28,796 nucleotides of DNA from Treponema primitia ZAS-1 (GTDB lineage: Bacteria; Spirochaetota; Spirochaetia; Treponematales; Breznakiellaceae). This document shows, one piece after another, positions 1,100 through 24,146 of this stretch. A program made the position numbers and the translations under genes. The stretch's first letter is position 1, and each line of letters begins with the position of its first letter. Below the pieces are notes generated by a model. The model did not search any database. It saw nothing but the letters and a program-made list of their open reading frames with translations, and had not been told where the DNA came from. Location of the stretch: assembly GCF_000297095.1 (NCBI RefSeq), contig NZ_AEEA01000039.1, positions 1-28,796 of the forward strand, in the 5' to 3' direction.

Positions 1100-1109
1100 T
1101 TCATTTTTC

Positions 1110-1138: not shown

Positions 1139-1197
1139 TTCCGTTACACATGGAAAGAACTTCTATGCGCTATTCCATATACCAGGAGAGGGGTTTT

Positions 1198-3908: not shown

Positions 3909-3986
3909 GACCGGATTTGTGGGTCGGGGGTACATGAACATTTACAGCCACGGTGAACGGATTACCGAAGCAGAGGCGGAAACCTT

Positions 3987-4268
3987 ATGAGGGGCGCGGA
4001 AAAAACCGGGCCGATACTGGTACGGTGTGCGGACTGTGTCAGGGTTTCCTGTGTCCTTAATTGCGATAGTAATGCAATCGTCTGTGTCTGTGGAGATTTG
4101 TTGATAGAGCTTGATAAATGTGCTGTATGCGGGCAGTACACGGGCAACAGTATTCCTGACTGTGTTGTTTCCTGCGGATATTCCCGGGAGAAAACGGTTC
4201 TGGAAATCCTGGACGCCGGAATGAAACAGATCAGGGCGGCTGATGCCCTGTCTTTGCTGAAACTGTAA
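3987..4268 (+). CDS. Small Cys-rich hypothetical protein, possibly a degenerate ferredoxin
   Basis: 93-aa ORF with 13 Cys, including CxxCxxxxCxxxC and CxxCGx(9)CxxxC spacings. GAGGCGGA lies upstream of the ATG. It is wedged between the two hycB-like genes on the same strand, and the next gene's RBS follows its stop. Confidence 0.5.
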   Translation: MRGAEKTGPILVRCADCVRVSCVLNCDSNAIVCVCGDLLIELDKCAVCGQYTGNSIPDCVVSCGYSREKTVLEILDAGMKQIRAADALSLLKL

Positions 4269-4282
4269 GAGAGGAGTTTTCT

Positions 4283-4828: not shown

Positions 4829-4830
4829 TC

Positions 4831-6799: not shown

Positions 6800-6823
6800 C
6801 CGCCGCAAGGTGCAGCGGATTTT
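6800..6823 (+). terminator. Possible intrinsic terminator after mobA
   Basis: CCGCCGC (6800-6806) / GCAGCGG (6812-6818) stem with one mismatch, 5-nt loop, then ATTTT. It lies in the convergent gap with the activase gene. Confidence 0.35.
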
Positions 6824-6840
6824 CCCGCGCAGTATTCCTA

Positions 6841-8793: not shown

Positions 8794-8939
8794 TGTTACA
8801 TTGCTCCCTTTCGGACCGATGGGTTTACATGATTTTTTGATAGACTATCGGGAATAGTACATGCTGTCAAGCCTCGGTGGGGTTTTGTTCAGTTTTGTTC
8901 CATCATGTTTTATTTTTAGACTTTTGGATAGTACGGAAC

Positions 8940-8968
8940 TTTACATAAGCAGTTTTATCCCCTACAAT
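8940..8968 (+). promoter_or_regulatory. Sigma70-like promoter for selAB
   Basis: TTTACA (8940-8945), 17-nt spacer, TACAAT (8963-8968). A second TACAATA copy lies 10 bp downstream at 8973-8979. Confidence 0.45.
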
Positions 8969-8989
8969 ATCTTACAATAAGGAATGATT

Positions 8990-10492: not shown

Positions 10493-10493
10493 G

Positions 10494-12452: not shown

Positions 12453-12540
12453 ATCGAATCTGATAGCTGGCCATTTACACAAAATTTCTGATAGTCCTAA
12501 TATCCCGCTGTTGTAATCCGTGGGAAAGTTTAACCTTCCC

Positions 12541-13710
12541 CTACACCCCATCCAGCGCCTCAAGTATCGCGTCAATATCCCCGTTGCTTGTTCTGCTCCC
12601 AAAGCTGAAGCGGATCGTCCCCCCCGGAAATGTTCCGGCGGTCCGGTGTGCCAAGGGTGAGCAGTGCAGCCCGCTGCGGGTAATTATGCTGTGGTTCTCA
12701 AACAGAAACCGTGAGACCTCTCCGGCATCGTGTCCTGGGATAGCAACTGAAACGACGGATACGCAGCGATCCGGATCAAGGGTCCCGCAGACGGCAATCT
12801 TTTTTATTTGTCCCAGCCCCGCTATAAAACGCGCCGTGGAAGCGCGTTCACGCTCCCGTATCGTTTCAACTCCTGTGCGCAAAATCTCCTCCACCGATGC
12901 GGCAAGGCTTAAGATGCCTATGGTGTTTTGTGTACCCGGCTCGAACTTGTCCGGCATGAACTCAGGCATGTCCAAGGATTGGGACACGCTGCCGGTACCG
13001 CCGCTTATCCATGGTCGCATCTGCCCTGCAGCCGCTTCTCCAATGACAAACCCTCCTGTGCCCGCAAGGCCCCGCAGCCCCTTATGGCCCGCAAACGCAA
13101 CAACATCGCTATTTGCAACGCCGACTTTAGTCGGAGAGTTCCCCGCGCCGTAATCTTCCATGGTAAACGGTAGGACGCCACCGGTCTGGGCCATGTCCAG
13201 GATGGTCAGGACGCCGTATTCATGGGCAATCCTAAAACATTCCGTTACGGGTAATATCGTACCAAGGACATTTGACGCATGGGTCATGACGAGCAGTCTT
13301 GTGTTTTTCCGTATTGCACCGCGGATTTTTTCAGGGTCCAGTGAACCATCCGGATCGCATTGGAGCCACTCAAGTTCTATCACACCATTTTTGCGGAGCG
13401 CTTCAAGTGGGCGGGCCGCCGCGTTGTGTTCCACGCTCGTGGACAGCACGTGATCCCCCTCTCTGACAAGGCCGTTTATAGCCATGTTCAGGGATTGTGT
13501 GGCGCCGCTGGTGAATATCACCCGCAGGGGATCGGCTACCCCAAGGAGCTTTGCTACAGCCCTACGGGCCCTCAGGGCAATGGCCCCTGCCTCCAGGCCT
13601 TCAAAATTCCGTCCGGCGTTGAGATGCGTCTCCCCTAAATATCCGTGCAGTTCTTGAACTACCACCGGGGATAATGCAGGAGAAGTGGCGGCGTAATTTG
13701 CGTATATCAT
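12541..13710 (-). CDS. Class-V aminotransferase-fold cysteine desulfurase / probable selenocysteine lyase
   Basis: PLP-lysine context AFAGHKGLRGLAGTGG and catalytic-Cys loop RSGLHCSPLAH. It is the last gene of the selC-DUF3343-selD-yedF string. Confidence 0.8.
   Translation of the reverse strand: MIYANYAATSPALSPVVVQELHGYLGETHLNAGRNFEGLEAGAIALRARRAVAKLLGVADPLRVIFTSGATQSLNMAINGLVREGDHVLSTSVEHNAAARPLEALRKNGVIELEWLQCDPDGSLDPEKIRGAIRKNTRLLVMTHASNVLGTILPVTECFRIAHEYGVLTILDMAQTGGVLPFTMEDYGAGNSPTKVGVANSDVVAFAGHKGLRGLAGTGGFVIGEAAAGQMRPWISGGTGSVSQSLDMPEFMPDKFEPGTQNTIGILSLAASVEEILRTGVETIRERERASTARFIAGLGQIKKIAVCGTLDPDRCVSVVSVAIPGHDAGEVSRFLFENHSIITRSGLHCSPLAHRTAGTFPGGTIRFSFGSRTSNGDIDAILEALDGV
13117..13149 (-). 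repeat. 33-bp codon-aligned repeat copy B, encoding GAGNSPTKVGV inside the desulfurase gene
   Basis: The reverse complement is identical to 9146-9178. It is in-frame on the coding (-) strand, just upstream of the PLP-lysine region. Confidence 0.95.
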
Positions 13711-13717
13711 ATCACAA

Positions 13718-14341
13718 TTATAGTGTGATAACCCCGGACGCCTTTGCCAGGGTGTTTGTTATTTTCATCATGTCAACGATACTTCCTACGGCGAGGGATT
13801 CGGTCAACTTATAGTAATTGGCGCAGGTACCGCAGGTATATACTTCCGTGCCTTTTTCCTGGAGAACTTTTAGATCAGGCACGGTGTTTGCCCCTTCGGT
13901 GGTGAGATGTGCACCGCCATTCAAAAATATAACCGCTTCCGGCAGGGGATTTAATTGGGTCAGGGAAAATATGAAACCCTTGATGAGCAGTTTCCCAAGA
14001 TCCTCCGCCCCCCTGCCCATGCTGTCCGCAGTGATGAGAACCACCGGCCCCTTCTTCACGCTCCCCACAGCGGGCGCATCAGATGCAGTTGCGGGAGCTT
14101 CCGGGGGCTCGTTAAAAGCCTTGTTGGGGTCCTTGAGGATAGTCACCTTATAGAGCGATGCCCCCTCCTCGGTGTACGAAAAACCGCAGTCTGTTCCTTT
14201 AGCCATCTTCTCAAGGTTCTGCACCGCAACAAAATTGTCTACCAAAACCACCACACCATCCGCGCCCGGTTCGGCAAGGGCTTTCTTGGCGTTTACCACA
14301 GGAATCGGGCAGGGATTTCCCTGCATATCCAATGTTTTCAT
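13718..14341 (-). CDS. yedF: Selenium metabolism protein YedF (TusA/SirA-like N-domain + DsrE-like C-domain)
   Basis: N-terminal MQGNPCPIPV (the TusA-type CP motif). About 200 aa, with a C-terminal region carrying CGTC. It lies between selD and the desulfurase gene. Confidence 0.75.
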   Translation of the reverse strand: MKTLDMQGNPCPIPVVNAKKALAEPGADGVVVLVDNFVAVQNLEKMAKGTDCGFSYTEEGASLYKVTILKDPNKAFNEPPEAPATASDAPAVGSVKKGPVVLITADSMGRGAEDLGKLLIKGFIFSLTQLNPLPEAVIFLNGGAHLTTEGANTVPDLKVLQEKGTEVYTCGTCANYYKLTESLAVGSIVDMMKITNTLAKASGVITL

Positions 14342-14374
14342 ATATAACTCCTATTTAGTGCAAGGATCTTCACC

Positions 14375-15439
14375 TTATCTGAATAGTATCACCTTTCCCG
14401 CCCTCGGCGCAACTTCCCCTATGATTGCGGCGTGTTCATCCCCGGCTTCCCTGATGCGGGCAGTAAGCGTCTCTGCCTCGTCGGGGGGCACGGCTATCAA
14501 AAGTCCTCCGGATGTCTGGGGATCGAATAACAGTTCCTGGGTGGCAAAGGGGAGCGCGCTTACATCGGCGTATTTGCTTCCACGGTTGCGGTTACGCTGG
14601 CCCGCGGCGGTCAGCAGATATTCGTTTGCATAGGTTACTGCCTCCGGGATAAGGGGCAAGGCATCGGGGTACAGTAGTATTGCCGCCTGATCCCCCGCCA
14701 TCTCCAGGGCATGGACAAGCAGCCCGAAACCGGTAACATCCGTACAGGCGCTTACGTTAAAACCCGCCATGCTCTCACAGGCATAGCGGTTGAGCCGCTC
14801 CATGGAGGCTATGGCCTGCCGAACCGCCCCCTCACCGGCCATCTCAACCCGCAGAGCAGCCATCACAATCCCTACGCCCAGGGGTTTGGTCAATATTATT
14901 TTATGCCCAATCTTTGGGGTGTTGTTGCGTATCACCTTTGCTGTCTCGACCATGCCGGTGACGGCCAGCCCATACTTTGGCTCCCTGTCGTATATAGAGT
15001 GTCCACCGCCCAAGACGGCCCCTGCCTCTGCGATTTTCTCCGCACCTCCAGCCAGTATATCTGCGAGGACACTTTTCTCCATGGCCTCGGGAAAACATAC
15101 CAGGTTCAGCGCCACCATGGGTTTGCCGCCCATGGCCCATACATCGCTCAAGGCGTTTGCGGCAGCGATACGCCCAAAGGTACGGGCATCGTCGACCATA
15201 GGGGGGAAAAAGTCCGCAGTAAAGATAAGCGAGTTTTTCTCATCAAGCATATAAACTGCGGCATCATCGGAAGTGTCGTAGCCGACCAGCAGTCGTTTGT
15301 CGCCGCTTGCAGGCAGCCCCGCCAACAGGCGGGCAAGCCCATCGCTTTCTATCTTCGCCCCGCATCCACCGCTTGTGCAGGAGGACAGTAGTCCTTTTGA
15401 CAGCAGGGACTCAGTGTTCTTACCCATCCCTTCCTCCAT
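14375..15439 (-). CDS. selD: Selenide, water dikinase (selenophosphate synthetase), Cys-type
   Basis: N-terminal glycine-rich loop TSGGCGAKI, with Cys rather than Sec at the catalytic position, and a PurM-like body. The start could instead be the ATG at 15427 (MGKNTE). Confidence 0.9.
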   Translation of the reverse strand: MEEGMGKNTESLLSKGLLSSCTSGGCGAKIESDGLARLLAGLPASGDKRLLVGYDTSDDAAVYMLDEKNSLIFTADFFPPMVDDARTFGRIAAANALSDVWAMGGKPMVALNLVCFPEAMEKSVLADILAGGAEKIAEAGAVLGGGHSIYDREPKYGLAVTGMVETAKVIRNNTPKIGHKIILTKPLGVGIVMAALRVEMAGEGAVRQAIASMERLNRYACESMAGFNVSACTDVTGFGLLVHALEMAGDQAAILLYPDALPLIPEAVTYANEYLLTAAGQRNRNRGSKYADVSALPFATQELLFDPQTSGGLLIAVPPDEAETLTARIREAGDEHAAIIGEVAPRAGKVILFR

Positions 15440-15707
15440 CCGCCCCGTTTATACCGATCTTCCTGTATCCATCCCCGGATTTCTCCCAGGCCTCTTTTAT
15501 AGCAAGTCCCCGCTCCGACAGAAACGAGGCGGCCCGTTCCAGATCTTCCGGTACAAACCTGAGGCAAAAACCGCATCCCGTTCGTATGCCCGCAGGCATG
15601 GGCATGACCCGGACATAAAACCCCTGCTCCACCAACGCCTGCTCCGCCATAATGGCCTGGGTGACACTATCGAAACCGATGATTAGTTCTTTGCTGTTAC
15701 TTTCCAT
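15420..15707 (-). CDS. DUF3343-like small protein (putative Se/S carrier)
   Basis: 95 aa counted from MESNSKELIIGFDS, with a conserved-looking GCGFCLRF. The listed ORF extends to 15893, but that extension runs through the tRNA-Sec gene, so I trimmed the start to the ATG at 15705-15707. Confidence 0.65.
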   Translation of the reverse strand: MESNSKELIIGFDSVTQAIMAEQALVEQGFYVRVMPMPAGIRTGCGFCLRFVPEDLERAASFLSERGLAIKEAWEKSGDGYRKIGINGADGGRDG

Positions 15708-15758
15708 GCGAGCTGCTATCGTACGGGGTAATGGGCTGCGCTTTTGACAACAAAAAAA

Positions 15759-15852
15759 TGGCGGAGGCGTGTGAGAATCGAACTCACCAAGGACGTTTCC
15801 ACCCTTTGACGGATTTGAAGTCCGCAGCCGCCACCAGGCGACATTCACCTCC
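15759..15852 (-). tRNA. selC: tRNA-Sec (anticodon UCA)
   Basis: The 94-nt reverse complement is GGAGGTGAATGTCGCCTGGTGGCGGCTGCGGACTTCAAATCCGTCAAAGGGTGGAAACGTCCTTGGTGAGTTCGATTCTCACACGCCTCCGCCA. It has a long acceptor stem, a 6-bp D-stem with 4-nt loop (GTCGCC-TGGT-GGCGGC), anticodon loop CTTCAAA, a long variable arm, T-arm GTGAG-TTCGATT-CTCAC, and an encoded CCA. Confidence 0.9.
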
Positions 15853-15860
15853 ACAGAATA

Positions 15861-15889
15861 ATGATAAGATTGTGAAGCTTTGTTGTCAA
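15861..15889 (-). promoter_or_regulatory. Sigma70-like promoter for selC
   Basis: On the minus strand: TTGACA (15884-15889), 17-nt spacer, TATCAT (15861-15866). The -10 ends 8 nt before the mature tRNA 5' end. Confidence 0.6.
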
Positions 15890-15975
15890 TCACGGCGGTG
15901 GAAACTACGGATCGGAGCTCGGAAACCCTTTTTCGGGATATTAAACCGGGTATATTAATTTTTTTTGGAAAATGC

Positions 15976-16004
15976 TTGACTCTTTTTTCGCAGGCCGCTA
16001 CTAT
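15976..16004 (+). promoter_or_regulatory. Sigma70-like promoter for the permease gene
   Basis: TTGACT (15976-15981), 17-nt spacer, TACTAT (15999-16004). It is divergent from the selC promoter. Confidence 0.5.
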
Positions 16005-16013
16005 TATTTTATC

Positions 16014-16031
16014 ATACTATTTATATAGTAT
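16014..16031. promoter_or_regulatory. Candidate operator palindrome just downstream of the permease promoter
   Basis: ATACTAT-TTAT-ATAGTAT: 7-bp inverted repeat with a 4-bp spacer, positioned around the expected transcription start. Confidence 0.35.
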
Positions 16032-16094
16032 TTATAGGATACTTGCTTAAAAAGCGCTTGCATTATGGGCGGTTATATGCTGCAGGAGGGTTTT

Positions 16095-17264
16095 ATGAAA
16101 AAAAGCGCTATGTTTTTACTCTGGGTTGGGGCGGCAATTTCCGTTTCGGAAATATTTACCGGGGGCCTGCTTGCTCCCTTGGGTTTTGTCCAAGGGCTGA
16201 TTGTAATAATTATCGGACATATAATCGGAACAGCGCTTTTTGCGGGGGGCGCTTATGTTTCTTATTGCCGGAAAGTTAATGCCATGGACAGCGTGGCTTT
16301 TTCTTTTGGTAAACTCGGAGGAAAATTAGTCGCCCTGTGTAATTTGGTACAACTTGTGGGCTGGATTATCATTTTAGTTGTACAGGCAGGGGGCGCTATT
16401 GCCGGTGTATTTCCTAATCTGCCTTTCTGGACAGTAACACTGACGCTGTCTATACTTCAAATAGTATGGGCTGTGATTTTTGGTACTCCGGGAGGCCGCA
16501 TAAACGATATAGCGGTTGTTCTCTTGGCAGGACTTTGTGTTTTATTTCTCGTTGAATCATTTGGATACAACGCCGGATCCTTATCCATTTCAACTAACAT
16601 GAGCATAATGTTAGGAATAGAATTGTCCATAGCCATGCCGGTTTCCTGGCTGCCATTGGTGGGAGACTATTCCTGCAAAGCAAATGACAAAATTGGCGCT
16701 ACGCTAATGCCCTTTCTTGGATATTTTTTGGGGAGTTGCTTTATGTATATCATTGGGCTTTCCATTGCGGTTTCAAGCGGGAATGATATTTTCGCTTTTA
16801 TCGCATCAAGCAGGTTTCGATATGTCGCCTGTGGTATAGTTTTATTGTCTACCATAACCACCAACTTTGTCGCTATTTATTCCGCAGCGGTTTCATCAAC
16901 ACAATGGATAAAAATCAAAAACATCAGGACATCAATTCTGATGGTTGGGATATTTACACTGGTTGTTTCTGTGTTTTTTCCGGTCAGCCGCTTTGAGTTA
17001 ATTCTGGAGAAATTCCTTACCTCTATCACCATGGTATTTGTGCCGATATTTACGCTTATTTTGCTTGAGTTCTTCATGAAAAAACAAACGACTGAAAAAC
17101 ACAATAATTGGGGGCAGTTGTTTATTGTGCTTATCGGCATAGCCGGTAATTGGCTGTTTAATAAATACGGTATTTTTATCCCCACGGTTATGACCATCCT
17201 GTTGGTTTCAACTTTATTTGTCATTAAATATATTATTGGTGGAAATAAAGCATGGAGAAAATGA
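16095..17264 (+). CDS. Polytopic membrane permease, NCS1 / CytX-like (family assignment tentative)
   Basis: About 390 aa, highly hydrophobic, roughly 11-12 predicted helices. The N-terminus LWVGAAISVSEIFTGG resembles purine-cytosine/CytX permeases from memory. AGGAGG lies 6 nt before the ATG at 16095. The gene is visibly more AT-rich than its neighbours. Confidence 0.6.
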   Translation: MKKSAMFLLWVGAAISVSEIFTGGLLAPLGFVQGLIVIIIGHIIGTALFAGGAYVSYCRKVNAMDSVAFSFGKLGGKLVALCNLVQLVGWIIILVVQAGGAIAGVFPNLPFWTVTLTLSILQIVWAVIFGTPGGRINDIAVVLLAGLCVLFLVESFGYNAGSLSISTNMSIMLGIELSIAMPVSWLPLVGDYSCKANDKIGATLMPFLGYFLGSCFMYIIGLSIAVSSGNDIFAFIASSRFRYVACGIVLLSTITTNFVAIYSAAVSSTQWIKIKNIRTSILMVGIFTLVVSVFFPVSRFELILEKFLTSITMVFVPIFTLILLEFFMKKQTTEKHNNWGQLFIVLIGIAGNWLFNKYGIFIPTVMTILLVSTLFVIKYIIGGNKAWRK

Positions 17265-17419
17265 TATCGGAAAAATGGCGCCTAACAAGATTGTCGATTT
17301 AAGCAAGTATATCATTTAGGCGCATATACCCGTATCTGACCGGATACGTCCTATGATTTGGGCAGATTCACCCGCCTCATGCCCTCCATTGCCTGTAGCG
17401 CGTTCCGCGTAAAAAACAC

Positions 17420-17448
17420 TTGAGTTTTTCCAGTTCCCATAGTATTCT
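17420..17448 (+). promoter_or_regulatory. Candidate promoter for fdhF(Sec)
   Basis: TTGAGT (17420-17425), 17-nt spacer, TATTCT (17443-17448), 40 nt upstream of the ATG. Confidence 0.4.
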
Positions 17449-17488
17449 GTTAAGTATAAAAGCGTTAAACCTCATAGGAGGAGAAGAA

Positions 17489-19681
17489 ATGGCGGTAAAA
17501 GAAATCCAGACCACCTGTGCGTACTGCGGAGCGGGGTGCCAGCTATTGTTTACGGTAGACCAGGATGTGAACAAGATCCTTGATGTGCATCCTGTTCAGG
17601 GCAGAACCAACGAAGGCACGGCCTGTTTGAAAGGCTGGTACGGGTGGGATTACCTCAATGACCCCCAGATTATCTCTAAAAGGCTCGCCAAGCCCATGAT
17701 TCGCAAGGGCGGTAAAAATAGTCCCCTGGAAGAGGTAGAATGGGACGAAGCCATTGCCTATACGGCGGGCCGGCTCATGGAAATTAAGGAAAAATACGGC
17801 CCCAACGCCATCATGGGCACCGGTTCGGCCCGGGGCTCGGGCAACGAGTCCAACTATATCATGCAGAAATTTATGCGCGCAGCGGTGGGCACCAACAATG
17901 TCGACCACTGCGCGCGGATATGACACGCTCCTTCTGTAGCGGGTCTACAGTATTCACTAGGTTCAGGCGCCATGACCATGGGAGTGCCTGAAATAGAAGA
18001 TGCAGCTCTTTTGTTTGTTTTCGGCTATAACGGCGCTGATTCTCACCCCATAGTCGCTCGCCGCATTGTGCGCGCCAAGGAAAAGGGCGCCAAGATAATC
18101 TGCGTCGATCCCCGGATCATAGAGACCGCCCGTATTGCGGACATGCATCTCCAGCTTAAAGGCGGCTCAAACCTGCTGCTGGTCAACGCTCTGGCCAATG
18201 TTATCTTGGAAGAAGGGCTCTGTGATTATGACTTTATCGAAAAACACGCCAATGGATTCGACGAGTTTAAGGAAATTGTAAAGAAATATACCCCCGAAGG
18301 CGTGGCTGCCCAGACCCAGATCTCCGCCGAGGATATCAGAAAGGCCGCCCGGATGTATGCCGCCAGCGGACGTTCCATGATCCTGTACGGCATGGGGGTC
18401 TGCCAGTTCGGGCAGGCCGTGGACGTGGTCAAGGGTTTGGCCAACCTGGCCATCATGACCGGCAACCTGGGCCGTCCCTCCACGGGCATCGGCCCGGTGC
18501 GGGGCCAGAACAACGTGCAGGGCGCCTGCGATATGGGGGCCTTGCCCAATGTCTATCCGGGCTACCAGAGCGTCACCGTCCCGGCGATACAGGAAAAATT
18601 CGAAAAAGCCTGGGGGGTCAAACTGTCCGATAAGCCTGGCATTACCCTGACCGTGGTGCCCCACCATGTGCTGCACGAAACCGACCCTGCAAAACAGATC
18701 CACGCCTATTACATAATGGGGGAGGACCCGGTCCAATCCGACCCGGATTCGACGGAAGTGCGGGAGTCTCTGGAGAAATGCGACTTCGTGGTTATGCAGG
18801 ACATTTATATGAACAAAACCGGCCAGTACGCCGATGTTCTTCTGCCGGCCACGGGCTGGTGCGAGCATGACTCGGTTTTCTCCTGCTGCGACCGGGGCTT
18901 TCAGAAGGCCCGCAAGGTCATCGAGCCTTCGGGGGATGTGAAGAACGACTGGGAAATCATCAGCCTGATTTCTACGGCCATGGGCTACCCCATGAAGTAT
19001 AACAACACCGTAGAAATCTGGAACGAGCTGATCGAACTCTGCCCCAGTTTCGCCGGCGCCACCGACGAGAAGCTTGAAAGGAACCTCTCCATCCAGTGGC
19101 CCTGCCGGGACAAGGCAGCGAGCGATTTGGGTACGGTCTACCTGCACAGGGGCGGCAAATTCGCCAACGCCGACGGCAAGGCCAACTTTTTCGCCACCGA
19201 ATGGCGGCCGCCTCAGGAAGTGGAAAACAAAGAGTATCCCCTCACCCTGTGTACGGTCCGCGAAGTGGGCCACTATTCGGTGCGCACCATGACCGGTAAC
19301 TGCCGGACCCTCCGCAACCTTGAGGATGAGCCGGGCTGGGTACAGATTTCGGCGAGGGATGCGGAAAAGCTTGGCATAAAACACCAAGAGCTTGTCAGGA
19401 TAAGCTCAAAACGCGGCTCCGTTATTACCCGGGCCAATATTACCTCCCGGGTCAAGAAGGGCGCCGTGTACATGACCTACCAGTGGTGGGTCGGCGCCTG
19501 TAACGAACTGACGAATAGTTCCCTTGACCCCATAAGCAAGACCCCGGAGTACAAGTACTGCGCCTGCAAGGTGGAAAGGCTTCCGGATCAAAAAGCGGCC
19601 TGGGACGCGGTGAACAAGACCTTGGCGGATTTGAGAAACAAGATGTTCATCAGCGTTGAACGGGAGGGTGTCTCGGGGTAA
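17489..19681 (+). CDS. fdhF: Formate dehydrogenase H catalytic subunit, selenocysteine variant (UGA at 17921-17923 decoded as Sec)
   Basis: ORFs 17420-17923 and 17972-19681 share one frame and are separated only by a single TGA. Read through, the sequence is HCARI-U-HAPSVAGLQYSLGSGAMTMGVPEIEDA, colinear with HCARICHAASVAG... of the paralog at 1198. The N-terminus MAVKEIQTTCAYCGAGCQ follows GGAGGAG. Confidence 0.92.
17921..17923 (+). other. In-frame UGA selenocysteine codon of fdhF(Sec)
   Basis: It aligns with the catalytic Cys codon (TGC, 1639-1641) of the paralog. The full sel machinery is encoded within 10 kb. Confidence 0.9.
17934..17950 (+). promoter_or_regulatory. Bacterial SECIS-like hairpin
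   Basis: CTGTAG-CGGGT-CTACAG: 6-bp stem and 5-nt G/U-containing loop, beginning 10 nt after the UGA. This is the usual position for a bacterial SECIS. Confidence 0.7.
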
Positions 19682-19703
19682 GCGGTTTTGTAAAACCAAA
19701 CCA

Positions 19704-19732
19704 TTGACCCGTTCCGGCTCAGTCGGTACGAT
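19704..19732 (+). promoter_or_regulatory. Candidate promoter in front of the MoxR-like gene
   Basis: TTGACC (19704-19709), 17-nt spacer, TACGAT (19727-19732). The -10 ends only 8 nt before the ATG at 19741, implying a leaderless or near-leaderless transcript if it is used. Confidence 0.3.
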
Positions 19733-19740
19733 ATGGGGTA

Positions 19741-21174
19741 ATGAAGGGCCTTAACCGGATCCGTGACCGGATCGAAATAGCCATCGAGATTACCAGGGAC
19801 AGTAAGGTTCCCATCCTTTTGATGGCAAACCCGGGACTGGCCAAATCAACGGTGGTGTACAACTGGGCCGGACGCAACGGCTACCATATTGAAACCCTTA
19901 TCGGCTCCCGGTTTTCCCAGGAGGAGATCCTGGGTTTTCAGGTCAGGGCGGAGGACCGTGAAACCGGGGAGCACTATCTGGAACTTCTGGCCCCCCACTG
20001 GTACCGGAACATCCTGGATCAGGAAAATAACTTTCATGTGCCGTCGGTGCTGTTCCTGGACGAGCTGAGTACCGCCCAGGAAAATGTTCAAGGGGCTCTG
20101 CTGCAGTTGGTCTTTGAGCGGAAAATCGGAAACGGCCGGACCCTGCCCGAATCGACCCTGGTTATCGCCGCGGCAAACTACAAGCAGAATATCCCCTTTC
20201 AGTTCAATATCATGGCCCCCATCCTCAACCGTTTTTGTATCATCAACCTGTCCTACGAAAGCAACGATAGTTTTCTTGACGAGTTTCTCCAGGATGAAGC
20301 GGACCTTGCGAAGGACCCCGTGGTCTTTGCGGAAAAAGAAATTACGCTCTGGCAGAAAAACTACCTCCGGGACGGATTGAAGATGATGTTCAGGACTCTT
20401 TTCCGTTCCTTTGAGGAGGATAACCGGGATATGGATAAGGACCTTATCTACACCATGGACATCAATAATCAGGTCTACAATACCATGTACGATGACGACT
20501 CCCGGTATGTATACAACTTTATTTCCGGCCGTACCCTCTGGTATCTCTACAAGATAAGCCTGTCCTTCCTCCGCAAAGGCCTGACCTTGGAGGCGCACGA
20601 TGCTGCCATACTTAACATGGTCTATGGCCTCATCGGCCTTGGAACCAACACCTTTACTGAAAAACAACGCAAGGCGTATCTAAAGAGCGCAGAAACCCTG
20701 TACCGGCGGCTCTACGATGTCCTATCCTCCCGGAATGACACCGGAACGACCACGGCTGCCGGTGAAGCTCAGCGCGCATCCCTGGACTTCCGGGGCAAGA
20801 GCATAGCGGACGCCGTCAACGAATGGGTTCTCTTTCATGAATCTTCGATGCTCCACGACATCAAGGATCCGAACCTGGAAGCCCTGACTATCCACATCAG
20901 CGCATCCTATGGCCTTAACGCCGAAGACACCGAGCGTCTCCGCCAGAAGATCACCCATAACAAGGCGGATCTCTACACCTTTTCCAACGATATGCAGCGC
21001 CTGGACTACCTCATCGGTATCCTCGAGGAGGAACAGAATCTTTCGGAAAACGCTAAGGATACGCAAGAGAAGAACCGTGAAGGCGATCCCCTTAACCGGC
21101 TCCGCGGAATCCGTGAGGCTTATGCGGAACTTCGTGACGAAGCGGTGAAGCTTATGATGAAGAACACGGGGTAA
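19741..21174 (+). CDS. MoxR/AAA_5-like AAA+ ATPase with a ~290-aa helical C-terminal extension of unknown function
   Basis: P-loop-like LLMANPGLAKST, Walker B VLFLDELS, sensor-1 VIAAAN, and PILNRF (the MoxR-type xLLxRF arginine). I do not recognise the C-terminal half. Confidence 0.7.
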   Translation: MKGLNRIRDRIEIAIEITRDSKVPILLMANPGLAKSTVVYNWAGRNGYHIETLIGSRFSQEEILGFQVRAEDRETGEHYLELLAPHWYRNILDQENNFHVPSVLFLDELSTAQENVQGALLQLVFERKIGNGRTLPESTLVIAAANYKQNIPFQFNIMAPILNRFCIINLSYESNDSFLDEFLQDEADLAKDPVVFAEKEITLWQKNYLRDGLKMMFRTLFRSFEEDNRDMDKDLIYTMDINNQVYNTMYDDDSRYVYNFISGRTLWYLYKISLSFLRKGLTLEAHDAAILNMVYGLIGLGTNTFTEKQRKAYLKSAETLYRRLYDVLSSRNDTGTTTAAGEAQRASLDFRGKSIADAVNEWVLFHESSMLHDIKDPNLEALTIHISASYGLNAEDTERLRQKITHNKADLYTFSNDMQRLDYLIGILEEEQNLSENAKDTQEKNREGDPLNRLRGIREAYAELRDEAVKLMMKNTG

Positions 21175-21185
21175 AGGACTAAGCC

Positions 21186-22649
21186 TTGCCGGAAAATGGA
21201 GATTGGGAGCCTGCCCAATACCGGGTAACAAACAAACTGCTGGAACGGCTTAATATCCGCATCAGTTATATTGACGTCCCTGGGATAAAGGGGGCGCCGC
21301 TAAGTTTTTCCTACCGGGCCATGCGGGGTGAGTACTGTATCTACATTGACCGGAAAGCAGATAGGCCGACTTTTATGGCCCGGGATCTCCACGAGAAAGG
21401 GCATATCCTCTACAACCACTTTAACCGGCCCAGGGCGCACCGCCAGCAGTTTGAAGAATTTTTCCGGCGCAACCTCCACAGTTTTCTTGCGCGCCTTCCT
21501 CCGGAGCGGAACTTAAACTCCAAGCTGGGTACCTATTCTACGTATATCTACAACCGTTTTTCTGACATAGCCCAGGCCATGGAGATAAATACCAAGCTTT
21601 TCAAAGAGGATCGTAAGGTGTTGCAAGTTGCGCGGGAAACTTCGCTGCAAAATACGCCCGGCGGTCCTCTGGAGGGATTCATCTTCCCCCGGGAGACGTG
21701 GCCCGAGGGACTGGACTGGATGAGCTATATGAGCTTCCTCTGCACCGAGCTGAACTTCTTTCTGGACCATATAGGGGACGGGCCGGGCAAAAAAATTAAG
21801 TCGAGCGACGTCAGCGCCTATAACGCCATGCAGGCCGTTGAACGGCGTATACAGGATATCCAGGAAACCCGAAAGACCGCTGCGGATGCGGACAGCAACG
21901 CCGCCTACGAACCGGAAGTCATCAGGCACGGCAGGACCGATAATTATACCGATACCAAGACGGTCAACACCGTTACGGAATTAAACGATGTTAAGGACCT
22001 GGTACGAATACTGCGGGAACGGAGCCTCCTCCTTAAGCGGAACCGGCTCCACACGGACATTCTCTATAATATTAACCGTAATCGGTTTGGGGATATCCTC
22101 ATCCCCCGGCGTTACCGCATTGAAAACTACAACCTGAACAACCTGTGTATACTGCTGGATGTGTCCGGCAGCGTTCCTCCGGGCTTTGTTAAGCGGGTTA
22201 TCCAAACCATTATGCGTGCCGAAGGAGCCTTTTACAAAGGCGCCTTTAACAAACACCTGAGCCGCCTGGTCTGCTGGTCCGACAGCCTTTGTTCCGATAC
22301 CTCCTTGGCGGACATTGGCGCCATAACCTTAGGCGGGGGTACCGTGTTGGGTGCAGGTATCGAATACTGTAAACAGTACCTCAACGAGCGGTCCAGTTTC
22401 TTTATCATCAGCGATTTCCAGGATGACCTTAACGACTGGATCAGCGCCGCCCGAGACCTGGGCTGCCAAAAAACCGCCGTGGGATACGGCCGATTTGGCC
22501 GGGATACCTCGTTTGAACGGTGGTTTTCCGCCATAGGTTCCAATGCGGACTACCGTAAGAACCCCGTGGACATACGACGTTTTGTGTCGGTGTTTAACAC
22601 GGTGCTGCTGCGGGATGATGTGGTACAGCGGGAGGGCTTGACCGGGTAA
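21186..22649 (+). CDS. Putative zinc metallopeptidase (HExxH) fused to a C-terminal von Willebrand factor A domain
   Basis: The N-domain carries DLHEKGHILYNH. The C-domain has MIDAS-type residues ILLDVSGSV (DxSxS), LGGGTV and FIISDFQDD. A TTG start lies 11 nt after the upstream stop, preceded by AGGA. The architecture resembles Pfam DUF2201_N + DUF2201 from memory. Confidence 0.7.
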   Translation: MPENGDWEPAQYRVTNKLLERLNIRISYIDVPGIKGAPLSFSYRAMRGEYCIYIDRKADRPTFMARDLHEKGHILYNHFNRPRAHRQQFEEFFRRNLHSFLARLPPERNLNSKLGTYSTYIYNRFSDIAQAMEINTKLFKEDRKVLQVARETSLQNTPGGPLEGFIFPRETWPEGLDWMSYMSFLCTELNFFLDHIGDGPGKKIKSSDVSAYNAMQAVERRIQDIQETRKTAADADSNAAYEPEVIRHGRTDNYTDTKTVNTVTELNDVKDLVRILRERSLLLKRNRLHTDILYNINRNRFGDILIPRRYRIENYNLNNLCILLDVSGSVPPGFVKRVIQTIMRAEGAFYKGAFNKHLSRLVCWSDSLCSDTSLADIGAITLGGGTVLGAGIEYCKQYLNERSSFFIISDFQDDLNDWISAARDLGCQKTAVGYGRFGRDTSFERWFSAIGSNADYRKNPVDIRRFVSVFNTVLLRDDVVQREGLTG

Positions 22650-22661
22650 GGTAAATTGTTT

Positions 22662-22723
22662 ATACTTTAGTGTATTACGATACAGTGTAATATGATACAC
22701 TATATCATATTACACTAAAGTAT
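22662..22723. repeat. 62-bp imperfect palindrome carrying four AGTGTA/TACACT half-sites
   Basis: Symmetric about 22692/22693. Outer arms are ATACTTTAGTGTA (22662-22674) / TACACTAAAGTAT (22711-22723). Inner arms are AGTGTAATATGAT (22684-22696) / ATCATATTACACT (22704-22716). About 26 of 31 positions pair overall. It lies 13 nt upstream of the ATPase ATG. Confidence 0.9.
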
Positions 22724-22736
22724 CCGGAGGCGTAGG

Positions 22737-24146
22737 ATGTTTGTGGGAAGAAAACGGGAACTGGAAGCTCTGGAAAAGCAATATGCCGGGAACGATTTTG
22801 AATTTGCGGTCATATACGGACGCCGGAGGGTGGGAAAAACATCCCTCATAGTTGAATTTATTAAGGATAAGCCGGCGGTATTTTTTACCGGCCGGGAAAC
22901 CAACCTGGCGGAAAATCTGGTGCTGCTCAGTGGGAGTATTCAGGCCTCCCGGTTTGGGGTAGAAAAGGCGCCGGTTTATCAGTCTATCGACGATGCCCTG
23001 GACCGGGTCTTCAGCGCCGCTGATGGCAAGCGGCTTATCTTTGTGATTGACGAGTACCCCTACCTGGCAGGGGCTTGGCGGGGAATATCTTCGACCCTCC
23101 AGGAAAAGATCGATCACCGTTCAAAAAAATGCAGGCTTTTTTTAATCCTCTGCGGATCATCCCTTTCCTTTATGGAAAACCAGGTGCTGGGGTACCAAAG
23201 TCCTCTGTACGGAAGACGAACCGCTCAGTATAAGATTGAGCCCTTTGATTTTTTTGAGGCCGGAGAATTTTTTCCCAACCTAAACAGCCAGGACAGCGCC
23301 GCTATCTATGCCATGGCCGGGGGTATTCCCTCATACCTGAACCGGTTTATCGGCTCTGCACCCCTCAAAGAAAAGGTGATCGCCAACTTCCTTAGTCCCC
23401 AGGGTTTTCTTTTTGAGGAGCCGGAAAATCTCCTGAAACAGGAACTGCGGGATCCGGCGAACTACAACGCCCTTATTCGGGAGATTGCCCGTGGAGCAAC
23501 CCGGGTTTCGGAGATCGCCTCTAAAACAGGTCTGGAAACCGGCGTAGCAAGCCACTACCTTGATACCCTCATACAGCTGGGAATTGTTGAACGGGAAATG
23601 CCCGTCACCGAGGAGGTTCAGGGAAAAACCCGCGGCAGGAAATCGCTCTACACGGTTAAGGATAATCTTTTCTGTTTTTGGTACCGATTTATCCCCGGCA
23701 TTATTGATATTATTCAGCATAACAACACGGAGAAAGCCTGGGACTTTATTGCCGAAGGGTTCAGCGCCTACATGGGCAGGGTATTTGAAGAAATTTGCCG
23801 ACAGTATCTCTGGCGGGAAAACACTGCAGGCAGACTACCCTTCTTTTTTCAGCAGGAGGGCCGCTGGTGGGGACATGATCCATTGCAGAAAATGGAATCC
23901 AAAATCGACATCCTGGCAATTCAGGGCAAGACCCATGCGCTGTTCTGCGAATGCAAGTGGAGAAACGAAGGAACCGGCAGGGACGTCCTTGAAGCCCTGT
24001 TACAAAAAGCGGATCATTTCCGGTTTGAACAGAAATACTACATCCTTTTTTCAAAGAGCCCCTTTACCGTGGGATGCAAAAAACTAGCCGCAGAGAGGGG
24101 GGGTGTCAGGCTGCTTAGCTTTAGGGAGATGAACGTAAACCGCTGA
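22737..24146 (+). CDS. P-loop ATPase (archaeal-ATPase/DUF234 family) with internal winged-helix and C-terminal PD-(D/E)xK-like module
   Basis: Walker A IYGRRRVGKTS, Walker B LIFVIDEYPYL, and wHTH-like REIARGATRVSEIASKTGLETGVASHYLDTLIQLGIVE. The C-terminal IDILAI...LFCECKW fits a D...ExK nuclease core. GGAGG lies 6 nt before the ATG. Confidence 0.75.
   Translation: MFVGRKRELEALEKQYAGNDFEFAVIYGRRRVGKTSLIVEFIKDKPAVFFTGRETNLAENLVLLSGSIQASRFGVEKAPVYQSIDDALDRVFSAADGKRLIFVIDEYPYLAGAWRGISSTLQEKIDHRSKKCRLFLILCGSSLSFMENQVLGYQSPLYGRRTAQYKIEPFDFFEAGEFFPNLNSQDSAAIYAMAGGIPSYLNRFIGSAPLKEKVIANFLSPQGFLFEEPENLLKQELRDPANYNALIREIARGATRVSEIASKTGLETGVASHYLDTLIQLGIVEREMPVTEEVQGKTRGRKSLYTVKDNLFCFWYRFIPGIIDIIQHNNTEKAWDFIAEGFSAYMGRVFEEICRQYLWRENTAGRLPFFFQQEGRWWGHDPLQKMESKIDILAIQGKTHALFCECKWRNEGTGRDVLEALLQKADHFRFEQKYYILFSKSPFTVGCKKLAAERGGVRLLSFREMNVNR

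What the first reader, a model, noticed from the sequence alone, without database searches (positions are those of the whole stretch)
19741..22649. Uncharacterised MoxR-like AAA+ ATPase plus HExxH-peptidase/vWA two-gene module directly behind the selenocysteine FDH
**Seen in the sequence**
- Gene 1 has AAA+ motifs of the MoxR/AAA_5 type: LLMANPGLAKST, VLFLDELS, VIAAAN and PILNRF. It also carries a ~290-aa extension I cannot place.
- Gene 2 starts 11 nt later at a TTG. It combines a zincin-like HEKGHILYNH motif with a vWA domain that retains MIDAS residues (DVSGS, GGGT, SDFQDD).
- The pair begins 59 nt after the fdhF(Sec) stop, on the same strand.

**Established knowledge**
- MoxR-vWA pairs act as cofactor-insertion or remodelling chaperones for metalloenzymes. 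Examples are CoxD/CoxE for Mo-Cu CO dehydrogenase, NorQ/NorD for NO reductase, CbbQ/CbbO for Rubisco, RavA/ViaA, and the Mg/Co chelatases.
- Comparative genomics has also proposed MoxR-vWA cores in NTP-dependent conflict (defence) systems.

**Inference**
- The module could be a maturation or reactivation factor for the Mo/W-Sec formate dehydrogenase.
- Alternatively, it could be a protease-armed conflict module.
- As far as I know, the peptidase-vWA fusion has no experimentally defined function.
Basis: partly seen in the sequence, partly recalled or inferred. Interest (0 to 1): 0.8.

Follow-up and report, generated by a model that had tools for sequence, protein, structure and literature searches.

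The report
Jumbo-phage ATPase/vWA pair kept by spirochaete
The two genes behind the selenocysteine formate dehydrogenase are a real AAA+ ATPase and its vWA partner, but they are the chromosomal descendants of a gene pair typical of giant bacteriophages, their protease site is decaying, and there is little evidence that they serve the formate dehydrogenase.

Summary
Coordinates, spacings and all quoted motifs are exact, and both ORFs are real genes (dN/dS about 0.1, like the neighbouring RACo gene).

- **Gene 1** is a MoxR/AAA_5-clade AAA+ ATPase. Its C-terminal half is conserved across the whole family.
- **Gene 2** is a vWA protein with an invariant MIDAS. Its N-terminal domain is a distant homologue of DUF2201_N, the zincin-like domain, although the Pfam DUF2201 models themselves do not hit.
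- **Origin.** The window comes from a Treponema primitia-like termite-gut spirochaete. Among 185,579 species genomes the pair occurs only in termite-gut spirochaetes. All wider relatives with known context sit in jumbo-phage contigs, always as the same ATPase-then-vWA pair (for example Bacillus phage AR9 gp028/gp029). This phage pair was described computationally in 2021.
- **Protease site.** Every spirochaete copy has lost two conserved residues of the second zincin motif. The first His of HExxH was lost at least six times. The window protein still reads HEKGH.
- **Linkage.** Linkage to formate dehydrogenase genes exists only among close T. primitia relatives. Elsewhere the neighbours are unrelated, or are ATP-synthase genes.

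Best reading: a domesticated phage-type ATP-driven remodelling pair with an unknown client.

The parts
19741..21174 (+). Gene 1: MoxR/AAA_5-clade AAA+ ATPase, 477 aa. AAA+ core about residues 1-190, lid and family-specific all-helical C-terminal half about residues 190-477.
   Evidence: Pfam AAA_5 25.6 bits (cut-off 22) and phrog_1297 'ATPase' at E 3e-23. AF2 model pLDDT 83.5, with Foldseek matches to MCM, NorQ (9qh8/9qhd/9qh4) and MoxR 2r44 at E 1e-8 to 1e-6. dN/dS 0.10-0.13.
19828..19851 (+). Walker A / P-loop NPGLAKST (K35). Ala replaces the usual Gly directly before the Lys.
   Evidence: P31, G32 and K35 are invariant in 34 family members. Coordinates verified.
20047..20070 (+). Walker B VLFLDELS (D107, E108).
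   Evidence: Invariant in alignment A2. Coordinates verified.
20161..20178 (+). Sensor 1 region VIAAAN (N146).
   Evidence: A144 and N146 are invariant. Assignment as sensor 1 is by analogy with AAA+ proteins (inference).
20218..20235 (+). PILNRF with R164, the candidate arginine finger.
   Evidence: L162, N163, R164 and F165 are invariant. The arginine-finger role is inferred.
20515..20535 (+). NFISGRT with R264, the candidate sensor-2 arginine in the lid. Together with GLIGLGTN (20626-20649) it shows that the '290-aa extension' is conserved across the family.
   Evidence: N259, F260, G263, R264, G296, L297, G299 and G301 are invariant down to 29-35% identity, phage members included.
21186..22649 (+). 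Gene 2: 487 aa, TTG start. DUF2201_N-like zincin-type N-domain (about residues 1-225), a low-confidence linker (about 226-262) and a vWA domain (about 263-487).
   Evidence: AF2 model pLDDT 77. Foldseek against PDB matches vWA folds. Foldseek against BFVD gives full-length matches to phage 'VWA-like/metallopeptidase' proteins, including PBS1 and ATV ORF892. hhalign against the phage DUF2201 proteins gives 99.5% for the vWA part and 95.9% for the N-domain. dN/dS 0.07-0.12.
21390..21419 (+). Zincin motif 1: HEKGHILYNH (H69, E70, H73, H78), of the form HExxHxxxxH.
   Evidence: 125 of the 130 listed representatives of at least 380 aa in the wider family carry an HExxH motif. Within the spirochaete clade H69 is replaced by F, R, Q or C, and H73 by R, A or G, in most lineages. 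E70 is nearly invariant and H78 is invariant.
21564..21590 (+). Degenerate zincin motif 2: DIAQAMEIN. The wider family and phage DUF2201_N proteins read NIAMDxEVN / NIAMDCAIN here. N127 has become D and D131 has become A; E133 and N135 are kept.
   Evidence: N127 and D131 are at least 90% conserved in the 131-sequence family alignment and invariant in five phage DUF2201 proteins. Both are replaced in every spirochaete copy.
22158..22172 (+). MIDAS DxSxS: DVSGS (D325, S327, S329).
   Evidence: Invariant in A1 (30 sequences) and A3 (131 sequences). D[IV]S[GS]S is present in all 86 homologues.
22332..22343 (+). MIDAS threonine: GGGT (T386).
   Evidence: G383, G384 and T386 are invariant in A1.
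22410..22427 (+). MIDAS aspartate: SDFQDD (D410, with D413).
   Evidence: S409, D410 and D413 are invariant in A1, and D410 is invariant in A3.
19682..19740 (+). 59-nt spacer between the fdhF(Sec) stop and gene 1. No terminator-like hairpin. A weak promoter-like match, TTGACC-17-TACGAT, lies at 19704-19732.
   Evidence: 9 of 12 matches, which is not evidence of function. Homology with strain ZAS-10 begins only at 19759.

Best explanation
**What it is**
- Gene 1 and gene 2 are a working, vertically inherited chromosomal copy of a two-gene module that is otherwise characteristic of jumbo bacteriophages.
- The module is a MoxR-like AAA+ ATPase followed by its vWA partner, which carries an N-terminal DUF2201_N-type zincin domain. 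Bacillus phage AR9 gp028/gp029 is an example.
- The module entered an ancestor of termite-gut Treponema/Breznakiellaceae, most parsimoniously from a phage, and has been kept under purifying selection.

**How it probably works (inferred)**
- Gene 1 assembles into an ATP-hydrolysing ring.
- Gene 2 docks on the ring and uses its intact MIDAS metal site to grip an acidic residue of a client protein.
- ATP hydrolysis then remodels, assembles or releases that client, as in NorQ/NorD, CbbQ/CbbO, RavA/ViaA and the Acidianus two-tailed-virus p618/p892 pair.

**The protease domain**
- In the phage ancestors the N-domain was probably an active zinc peptidase.
- In the spirochaete lineage the second zincin motif was lost at the base of the clade, and HExxH has eroded repeatedly.
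- The domain is nonetheless still conserved, so it most likely now acts as a non-catalytic client-binding or scaffold domain. The T. primitia copy has merely not yet lost HExxH.

**The client**
- The client is unknown.
- The position behind fdhF(Sec) is best explained by shared ancestry within one genus-level clade, not by a dedicated FDH function.
For: **Shown**
- Real genes under purifying selection in all domains.
- ATPase motifs invariant, with the fold of the MCM/MoxR/NorQ clade.
- vWA fold and invariant MIDAS.
- N-domain homologous to phage DUF2201_N: HExxHxxxxH and NIAMDxxIN align, 95.9% probability, E 5e-9. The vWA part aligns at 99.5%.
- AR9 gp029 itself hits Pfam DUF2201_N and DUF2201 and follows an AAA_5 ATPase.
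- Of 185,579 species genomes, only 23 loci encode a relative, all in termite-gut spirochaetes.
- About 70 IMG/VR viral contigs, mostly 200-400 kb, encode relatives. So do phage-like contigs carrying tail-tube, DnaB, phiKZ-type and ClpP genes.
- In nearly every viral locus that includes upstream sequence, a full-length gene 1 homologue lies directly 5' of the gene 2 homologue.
- The spirochaete clade is monophyletic and sister to a phage-like clade.
- N127 and D131 are lost in all spirochaete copies, and H69 was lost at least six times.
- Neighbourhoods differ between lineages.

**Literature**
- The phage pair is described as a MoxR-vWA chaperone/co-chaperone with an N-terminal metallopeptidase (PMC7824862).
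Against: - No experiment exists for any member of the family. Ring formation, the gene 1-gene 2 interaction and the MIDAS-client contact are all inferred by analogy.
- The window protein keeps H69, E70, H73, H78 and E133, so a working zinc site cannot be excluded for this particular copy.
- The Walker A has Ala instead of Gly before the Lys.
- In one spirochaete clade the two genes are no longer adjacent. That would be unexpected if they were obligate partners.
- The direction of transfer (phage to host) rests on distribution and on an NJ tree rooted with one phage sequence.
- The persistent placement in the FDH/HDCR-RACo neighbourhood in eight T. primitia-like loci, despite rearranged flanks, could still reflect function.
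Confidence: 0.6

Rival explanations
1. Dedicated maturation or reactivation factor for the Mo/W-selenocysteine formate dehydrogenase or HDCR. The ATPase/vWA pair would insert or repair a cofactor, as CoxD/CoxE or NorQ/NorD do.
For: - The pair lies on the same strand, 59 nt after fdhF(Sec), with no terminator-like hairpin between them.
- In eight T. primitia-like loci it always lies in the acetogenesis neighbourhood, between FDH/HDCR genes (FdhF-Sec, MobA or FocA) and/or the RACo-ACS cluster, although the flanks have been rearranged.
- MoxR-vWA pairs are known metalloenzyme maturases (established knowledge; PMC7159879).
Against: - ZAS-10 keeps the pair at 91-95% identity, but at this locus it lacks window 1054-19758, which holds both fdhF genes, the HDCR genes and the Sel genes.
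- MS499-40 and MS499-44 have no FDH gene upstream.
- At 38-75% identity the neighbours are the atp operon, LysR/LUD, ABC/SbcCD, UvrA, XPB helicase, FBP aldolase and SBF transporter genes.
- The nearest relatives outside spirochaetes are phage genes.
- FDH-bearing acetogens in general lack the pair: only termite spirochaetes carry it among 185,579 species.
Confidence: 0.12
2. In T. primitia the module is still what it probably is in phages: an ATP-dependent, vWA-targeted zinc protease that cleaves a specific client.
For: - The window protein and its close relatives retain HEKGH...H78 and E133.
- 30 of the 66 scorable homologues (86 in all) keep HEKGH.
- The N-domain has dN/dS 0.07-0.14.
Against: - N127 and D131 are at least 90% conserved in the wider family and invariant in phage DUF2201_N proteins. 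Both are replaced in every spirochaete copy, this one included.
- Sister lineages under the same purifying selection have lost H69 and/or H73 (REKGR, REKAR, FEKGH, RAKAG). Catalysis is therefore dispensable for whatever keeps the gene.
Confidence: 0.2
3. A conflict (anti-phage) module. Either it is an NTP-dependent MoxR-vWA defence system, or it is a captured, protease-dead copy of a jumbo-phage factor that interferes with infecting relatives of the donor phage, acting as a decoy or dominant-negative.
For: - Phage origin, patchy distribution within termite spirochaetes, a self-contained cassette in differing chromosomal sites, and loss of catalytic residues with retention of binding and ATPase motifs.
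- One locus lies next to type I R-M genes and one next to Rpn/HTH genes.
- A DUF234/PDC-S27 candidate defence gene is adjacent in the window.
Against: - No PADLOC hit for either gene.
- No third component (VMAP, beta-propeller) as in the described ternary systems, and bpMoxR is below threshold.
- The DUF234 gene is a strain-specific insertion.
- Most neighbours are housekeeping genes.
- dS and dN/dS match the neighbouring core genes, which points to long vertical inheritance rather than defence-island turnover.
Confidence: 0.1
4. Inert remnant of a prophage with no present function.
For: The phage affinity of both genes.
Against: - Full-length intact ORFs are present in all spirochaete loci.
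- dN/dS is about 0.1 in every domain, with dS up to about 1.
- No other phage gene lies nearby in the window.
Confidence: 0.02

Closest known systems
Jumbo-phage MoxR AAA+ ATPase plus metallopeptidase-vWA pair (Iyer et al. 2021, Viruses 13:63, PMC7824862; e.g. Bacillus phage AR9/PBS1 gp028-gp029, annotated 'zincin-like protease fused to vWA domain')
   Same: - Same two-gene order and orientation.
- Same architecture: AAA_5-type ATPase, then a zincin N-domain plus vWA.
- Shared signatures HExxHxxxxH, N-x-A-x-D-x-x-[IV]-N and DxSxS...GGT...D.
- Profile-profile homology for both domains of gene 2, and hmmsearch hits of both family profiles on AR9 gp028 and gp029.
   Different: - Chromosomal, in a free-living spirochaete, with no phage genes around it.
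- Zincin motif 2 is degenerate and HExxH is eroding across the clade.
- A roughly 35-residue helical insertion lies between the two zincin motifs.
- The Pfam DUF2201 and DUF2201_N models do not detect it.
- The small 77-aa ORF found between the two genes in the nearest phage clade is absent.
Acidianus two-tailed virus p618 (MoxR) / p892 (vWA) tail-development chaperones (Scheele et al. 2011, cited in PMC7824862 and PMC7159879)
   Same: A virus-encoded MoxR-vWA pair. ATV ORF892 is a structural match to the gene 2 model (BFVD rank 13, E 9.5e-6).
   Different: ATV p892 has no peptidase domain, the virus is archaeal, and there is no detectable sequence relationship beyond the vWA fold.
Cellular MoxR-vWA maturases: NorQ/NorD, CbbQ/CbbO, CoxD/CoxE, RavA/ViaA
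   Same: An AAA+ ring of the same clade (NorQ structures 9qh8/9qhd/9qh4 among the best fold matches) paired with a MIDAS-bearing vWA protein (NorD 9qhf_G). The mechanism is probably similar.
   Different: - No sequence membership in those families. There is only a sub-threshold VWA_CoxE hit (17.8 bits against 26.4) and no CbbQ_C or other family-specific domains.
- Gene 1 has a different, roughly 290-aa C-terminal half.
- Gene 2 carries a zincin-type N-domain.
- There is no conserved client gene next to the pair.
MoxR-vWA ternary conflict systems (Kaur et al. 2020, eLife 9:e52696)
   Same: A MoxR plus vWA core. Some of those systems carry inactive peptidase 'effector' domains fused to the vWA component.
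   Different: - No third component (VMAP, beta-propeller or FtsH).
- The bpMoxR model is below threshold (20.4 bits against 27).
- No PADLOC hit.
- Not located in a defence island.

Membership tests
AAA+ ATPase, MoxR/AAA_5 (helix-2-insert clade) | Pfam AAA_5 match above the gathering score | tested here: met
   PF07728 at 25.6 bits against a cut-off of 22, residues 25-148. Most homologues carry a precomputed PF07728 hit.
AAA+ ATPase, MoxR/AAA_5 (helix-2-insert clade) | Walker A Lys, Walker B Asp-Glu, sensor-1 Asn and Arg finger conserved | tested here: met
   K35, D107, E108, N146 and R164 are invariant in 34 sequences. Caveat: Ala rather than Gly precedes K35.
AAA+ ATPase, MoxR/AAA_5 (helix-2-insert clade) | Fold similar to solved MoxR, NorQ and MCM structures | tested here: met
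   Foldseek E 1e-8 to 1e-6 against MCM, NorQ (9qh8, 9qhd, 9qh4) and 2r44.
AAA+ ATPase, MoxR/AAA_5 (helix-2-insert clade) | Hexamer formation and ATP hydrolysis | not testable with these tools
   Requires biochemistry or a multimer prediction.
vWA domain with functional MIDAS | DxSxS ... T ... D metal-site residues present and conserved | tested here: met
   D325, S327, S329, T386 and D410 are invariant.
vWA domain with functional MIDAS | vWA (Rossmann-like) fold | tested here: met
   Foldseek against PDB matches integrin I domains, CLCA1 vWA, CMG2 vWA and NorD. Pfam VWA_CoxE is only sub-threshold.
Pfam DUF2201_N (PF13203) + DUF2201 (PF09967) 'metallopeptidase-vWA' proteins | Direct match to the two Pfam models | tested here: not met
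   No hit at E <= 10 for the window protein, nor for five further family members tested (L006, L008, L038, P0222, P0250). AR9 gp029 hits both models (1.5e-17 and 4.9e-15).
Pfam DUF2201_N (PF13203) + DUF2201 (PF09967) 'metallopeptidase-vWA' proteins | Remote homology of both domains by profile-profile comparison | tested here: met
   vWA part 99.5%, E 4.9e-23. N-domain 95.9%, E 5e-9, aligning both motifs.
Pfam DUF2201_N (PF13203) + DUF2201 (PF09967) 'metallopeptidase-vWA' proteins | Catalytic signature HExxHxxxxH plus N-x-A-x-D-x-x-[IV]-N intact | tested here: not met
   Motif 1 is intact in the window protein. Motif 2 reads DIAQAMEIN, with N changed to D and D changed to A. In sister lineages motif 1 is lost as well.
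Jumbo-phage MoxR + metallopeptidase-vWA module (PMC7824862) | AAA+ gene immediately 5' of the zincin-vWA gene on the same strand | tested here: met
   11-nt gap in the window. The same layout occurs in nearly every viral locus that includes upstream sequence and in AR9, BpSp and XaC1.
Jumbo-phage MoxR + metallopeptidase-vWA module (PMC7824862) | Located in a phage genome | tested here: not met
   The window neighbours are FdhF, Sel genes, DUF234, MFS and RACo. In ZAS-2 the pair lies in a 4.06-Mb chromosome between fdhF and the ACS cluster.
FDH / metalloenzyme maturase (CoxD/E-, NorQ/D-like) | Conserved linkage to the client enzyme genes across lineages | tested here: not met
   Linkage occurs only in the clade at 83% identity or more. 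ZAS-10, MS499-40/44, SP9 and all lineages at 60% identity or less lack an adjacent FDH gene.
FDH / metalloenzyme maturase (CoxD/E-, NorQ/D-like) | Effect on enzyme activity or cofactor content | not testable with these tools
   Needs genetics and biochemistry in T. primitia.
MoxR-vWA ternary conflict systems / known defence systems | Third component (VMAP, beta-propeller, FtsH) or a match to defence-system models | tested here: not met
   No PADLOC hit, bpMoxR sub-threshold, and no such neighbour in any locus.

The most novel reading that the evidence does not exclude
A jumbo-phage ATPase/vWA module was captured by termite-gut spirochaetes and repurposed as an assembly or repair factor for large energy-conserving complexes. 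Three observations point that way. In T. primitia-like acetogens the pair sits at the junction of the FDH/HDCR and RACo-ACS clusters. In Breznakiellaceae SP9 it lies directly upstream of the F-type ATP synthase operon. In a third clade the ATPase alone always follows atpE-atpF-atpH, with no atpA, atpG or atpD behind it. The last arrangement even allows a hybrid in which the AAA+ ring associates with F-type stator or c-ring subunits.
Probability: 0.12. Interest if true: 0.75.

Novelty: new variant of a known kind. Interest (0 to 1): 0.45.

Why it matters
- **Where the module belongs.** The analysis moves an 'orphan' module from 'possible FDH maturase' to a defined evolutionary setting. It is a hallmark gene pair of jumbo phages that one bacterial lineage has kept for a long time, with its protease site decaying while the ATPase and the MIDAS site stay intact.
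- **A natural experiment.** This separates the catalytic role of the zincin domain from its non-catalytic role, for a widespread phage module that has never been studied experimentally.
- **A culturable host.** T. primitia can be grown in culture, so the family could be studied there.
- **A caution for annotators.** Proximity to fdhF(Sec) should not be read as functional linkage in the acetogenesis loci of termite symbionts.
- **A testable lead.** The repeated ATP-synthase neighbourhoods are a new lead on the client.

Tried and rejected
- **Pfam, NCBIfam and PADLOC on gene 2.** The only result was a sub-threshold VWA_CoxE hit. The PHROG hit phrog_1314 'HNH endonuclease' covers only the vWA part and the label is misleading. 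AR9 gp029 carries the same label although it is DUF2201_N + DUF2201.
- **tblastn of gene 2 against 50,697 GenBank phages.** No match. The relationship to phage proteins needed profiles.
- **PDB sequence searches with the family profiles.** Nothing. The N-domain also has no PDB fold match in the whole-chain search.
- **hhalign of the full profiles.** Only the vWA part was reported. The N-domain had to be cut out and compared separately.
- **The search for related loci with the 131-sequence alignment.** Failed for lack of a conserved stretch. Sub-family alignments worked.
- **RNA-seq study of T. primitia ZAS-2 (PMC3892789).** The supplementary tables are not held, so I could not check whether TREPR_3072/3073 respond to selenium. 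No paper mentions these locus tags.
- **Small ORFs upstream of solitary gene 2 copies.** They are not conserved and are not c-subunit-like.
- **Prophage remnant.** Rejected on dN/dS.
- **DUF234 ATPase as a third partner.** Rejected because it is absent from ZAS-2 and ZAS-10.

Full report
**1. The observation**

The two ORFs are exactly where the finding says. Gene 1 runs 19741-21174 (ATG, 477 aa) and gene 2 runs 21186-22649 (TTG, 487 aa), both on the + strand. Gene 1 begins 59 nt after the stop of the upstream gene, and gene 2 begins 11 nt after the stop of gene 1. An AAGGA lies 7 nt before the TTG. Every quoted motif is present at the positions listed under 'parts'. The upstream gene is a selenocysteine FdhF, with a single in-frame TGA in CARI*HAPS.

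The window is an acetogenesis and selenium region. In order it holds:
- FocA
- FdhF(Cys)-HycB-HycB-HydA (HDCR-like) and MobA
- SelA, SelB, tRNA-Sec, a SelD-like gene and selenium-carrier genes
- FdhF(Sec)
- the pair studied here
- a DUF234 ATPase, a flavin reductase and an MFS transporter
- RACo

**2. Source organism and reality of the genes**

The best hits are Treponema primitia proteins. ZAS-10 is 95% (gene 2) and 91% (gene 1) identical. ZAS-2 TREPR_3072 and TREPR_3073 are 83% and 81% identical. Against six orthologous loci dN/dS is 0.07-0.13 for both genes, with dS up to about 1. The neighbouring RACo gene gives the same range. Every domain is constrained, including the zincin-like N-domain (0.07-0.14) and the C-terminal half of gene 1 (0.15-0.20). 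These are functional, vertically inherited genes, not a decaying prophage.

**3. Gene 1**

Pfam AAA_5 is above threshold, while bpMoxR, AAA and AAA_3 are below. PHROG 1297 'ATPase' matches at E 3e-23. In 34 family members down to 29% identity the following are invariant:
- Walker A Lys (K35)
- Walker B D107 and E108
- N146
- R164
- a lid motif NF..GR (R264)
- GLxGxGT

The '290-aa extension' is therefore a conserved part of the family. The AF2 model (pLDDT 83.5) matches MCM, NorQ and MoxR structures. That places gene 1 in the helix-2-insert clade of AAA+ proteins.

**4. Gene 2**

The AF2 model (pLDDT 77) has three parts: an N-terminal beta-sheet plus helices, a disordered linker, and a C-terminal vWA fold. 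The vWA part matches integrin I domains, CLCA1 and NorD. The MIDAS residues D325, S327, S329, T386 and D410 are invariant in 30 close relatives and in 131 distant ones.

The Pfam models DUF2201 and DUF2201_N do not hit. Three results nonetheless tie the protein to that family:
- Bacillus phage AR9 gp029 hits both models and follows the AAA_5 ATPase gp028.
- A profile of the gene 2 family aligns to five phage DUF2201 proteins at 99.5% for the vWA part and at 95.9% (E 5e-9) for the N-domain alone. The N-domain alignment superposes HExxHxxxxH and N-x-A-x-D-x-x-[IV]-N.
- The BFVD fold search gives full-length matches to phage 'VWA-like/metallopeptidase' proteins, including the PBS1 orthologue of gp029 and ATV ORF892.

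**5. Distribution**

A pattern scan of one genome per 185,579 prokaryotic species found 23 loci, all in termite-gut Treponema or other Spirochaetia. An exhaustive HMM search of 1.84 billion representatives found 399 clusters at E <= 1e-3.

Wherever I could see context outside the spirochaete clade, it was phage-like:
- a 173-kb contig with tail-tube and DnaB genes
- a contig with phiKZ-type protease and internal-protein genes and a ribonucleotide reductase
- a 429-kb contig with DnaB, ClpP, a ligase and S21
- about 70 IMG/VR viral contigs, mostly 200-400 kb

In nearly all of these a full-length gene 1 homologue lies directly 5' of the gene 2 homologue. The few exceptions are loci with too little upstream sequence. 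The pair is thus a conserved jumbo-phage module. It was noted computationally by Iyer et al. 2021, who proposed a role in virion assembly with proteolytic processing (PMC7824862).

My neighbour survey in 13 phage loci found mostly replication-type genes. RNase H appeared in 7 loci, alongside DnaB and ClpP-like genes and a few structural genes. AR9 gp028 has an annotated early promoter. The phage function therefore remains open. I found no experimental work on the family.

An NJ tree shows the spirochaete copies as one clade, sister to a phage-like clade.

**6. The residue audit**

In the wider family 125 of the 130 listed representatives of at least 380 aa carry HExxH. H69, E70, G72, H73, H78, N127, D131, E133 and N135 are each at least 90% conserved. 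N and D of motif 2 are invariant in the phage DUF2201 proteins.

In every spirochaete copy N127 and D131 are replaced; the window reads DIAQAMEIN. H69 has been replaced by F, R, Q or C on at least six branches, and H73 is often replaced by R, A or G. Only the T. primitia-like clade and one other clade still read HEKGH.

The N-domain remains under purifying selection throughout, while MIDAS and the ATPase motifs never change. The parsimonious reading is that peptidase catalysis became dispensable after capture, and that the domain now serves binding or scaffolding. I cannot exclude residual activity in this particular copy.

**7. Neighbourhoods**

T. primitia-like clade, at 83% identity or more:

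| Locus | Arrangement |
|---|---|
| Window and ZAS-2 | FdhF-Sec > pair |
| ZAS-10 | FocA > pair |
| MS499-42 and Ncb351_bin77 | MobA > pair |
| MS499-40 and MS499-44 | unrelated genes > pair > small genes > RACo |

ZAS-10 lacks window 1054-19758 altogether at this locus. The DUF234 gene (22655-24105) is absent from both ZAS-10 and ZAS-2.

More distant lineages:

| Lineage | Arrangement |
|---|---|
| SP9 (75% identity) | pair > atpBEFHAGDC |
| 51-53% identity | LysR/LUD; ABC-F; XPB helicase/FBP aldolase; SBF/MBL |
| 38-40% identity | ABC/SbcCD; UvrA/Rpn |
| 47-50% clade | gene 2 stands alone; gene 1 follows atpE-atpF-atpH in three contigs with different downstream genes |

There is therefore no conserved FDH link, no other conserved metalloenzyme link, and no defence-island pattern. 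PADLOC is negative for both genes.

**8. Mechanism**

*Shown:* an intact AAA+ ATPase signature, an intact MIDAS vWA, a degenerate zincin site, strict pairing in phages, and purifying selection in the host.

*Inferred by analogy* with NorQ/NorD, CbbQ/CbbO, RavA/ViaA and ATV p618/p892: the ATPase forms a ring, the vWA protein is its adaptor, and ATP hydrolysis remodels a client that is held through the MIDAS site and the N-domain.

The client is unknown. The recurrent placement near bioenergetic clusters (FDH/HDCR-ACS, and ATP synthase twice) is a lead, not a result.

**9. Verdict**

- The domain reading is largely right, but the 'peptidase' is probably not catalytic in this lineage.
- The FDH-maturase and defence readings are weakly supported.
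- The module is a host-retained variant of a jumbo-phage pair that has been described, but only computationally.

Noticed in passing
L042, L132, L133 (gene 1 homologues P0144, P0149, P0138); L002 (SP9): In three Spirochaetaceae MAG contigs the gene 1 homologue directly follows atpE-atpF-atpH (F-type c, b and delta subunits). No atpA, atpG or atpD follows, and the downstream genes differ each time. In Breznakiellaceae SP9 the pair lies 137 nt upstream of a complete atpBEFHAGDC operon. This is a recurring and unexplained association with ATP-synthase genes.
   Followed up: partly
window 22655-24105 (gene at 22737-24146); palindrome at 22662-22723: The DUF234/ATPase_2 protein has an HTH and an Mrr_cat-like C-terminus and matches PADLOC PDC-S27 at E 3e-51. 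It is a strain-specific insertion, absent from ZAS-2 and ZAS-10. It is preceded by an AT-rich inverted repeat with 28-nt arms, 89% complementary, which overlaps the best promoter-like site in the region (TTGACC-17-TATACT).
   Followed up: partly
window 1054-19758 compared with L010 (T. primitia ZAS-10): In ZAS-10, FocA is followed within about 125 nt by gene 1. The 18.7-kb block carrying FdhF(Cys), the HDCR genes, MobA, the BadF/HgdD-like genes, SelA, SelB, SelD, tRNA-Sec and FdhF(Sec) is missing at this locus. In MS499-42 a single FdhF-HycB-HycB-HydA-MobA block abuts the pair. The locus seems to be a hotspot for gain and loss of FDH variants.
   Followed up: partly
window 15759-15852 (-) and 15420-15893 (-): A tRNA-Sec gene (Rfam 77.8 bits) lies inside the 5' part of the mechanically listed 157-aa Se/S-carrier ORF. 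The real carrier gene must start downstream of it; the ZAS-2 gene is 98 aa.
   Followed up: partly
window 16065-17264 (+): A 399-aa ORF with no Pfam hit lies in a low-GC stretch (0.40-0.47, against about 0.55 around it) directly upstream of fdhF(Sec). It is conserved in ZAS-2 at 91% identity.
   Followed up: no
window 3987-4268 (+): A 93-aa ORF with no Pfam hit lies between the two HycB-like genes of the HDCR cluster. An ORF of similar size (97 aa) occupies the same position in MS499-42 (L013).
   Followed up: no
L006 9742-9975; L044 9428-9664; L033/L035: In the phage clade closest to the spirochaete genes, a conserved-size ORF of 77-78 aa sits between the ATPase gene and the zincin-vWA gene. 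The spirochaete pairs have no such ORF.
   Followed up: no
window 6841-8793 (-): A BadF/BcrA-type ATPase and a 2-hydroxyglutaryl-CoA dehydratase D-component-like gene are wedged between the HDCR/MobA block and the selenocysteine-synthesis block.
   Followed up: no
GenBank phage records: DUF2201_N/DUF2201 proteins of many phages are annotated as 'HNH endonuclease' or 'anti-sigma factor', and PHROG 1314 carries the HNH label. For AR9 gp029, the one tested here, Pfam finds only the DUF2201_N and vWA-type domains, so the label looks like a propagated mis-annotation.
   Followed up: partly
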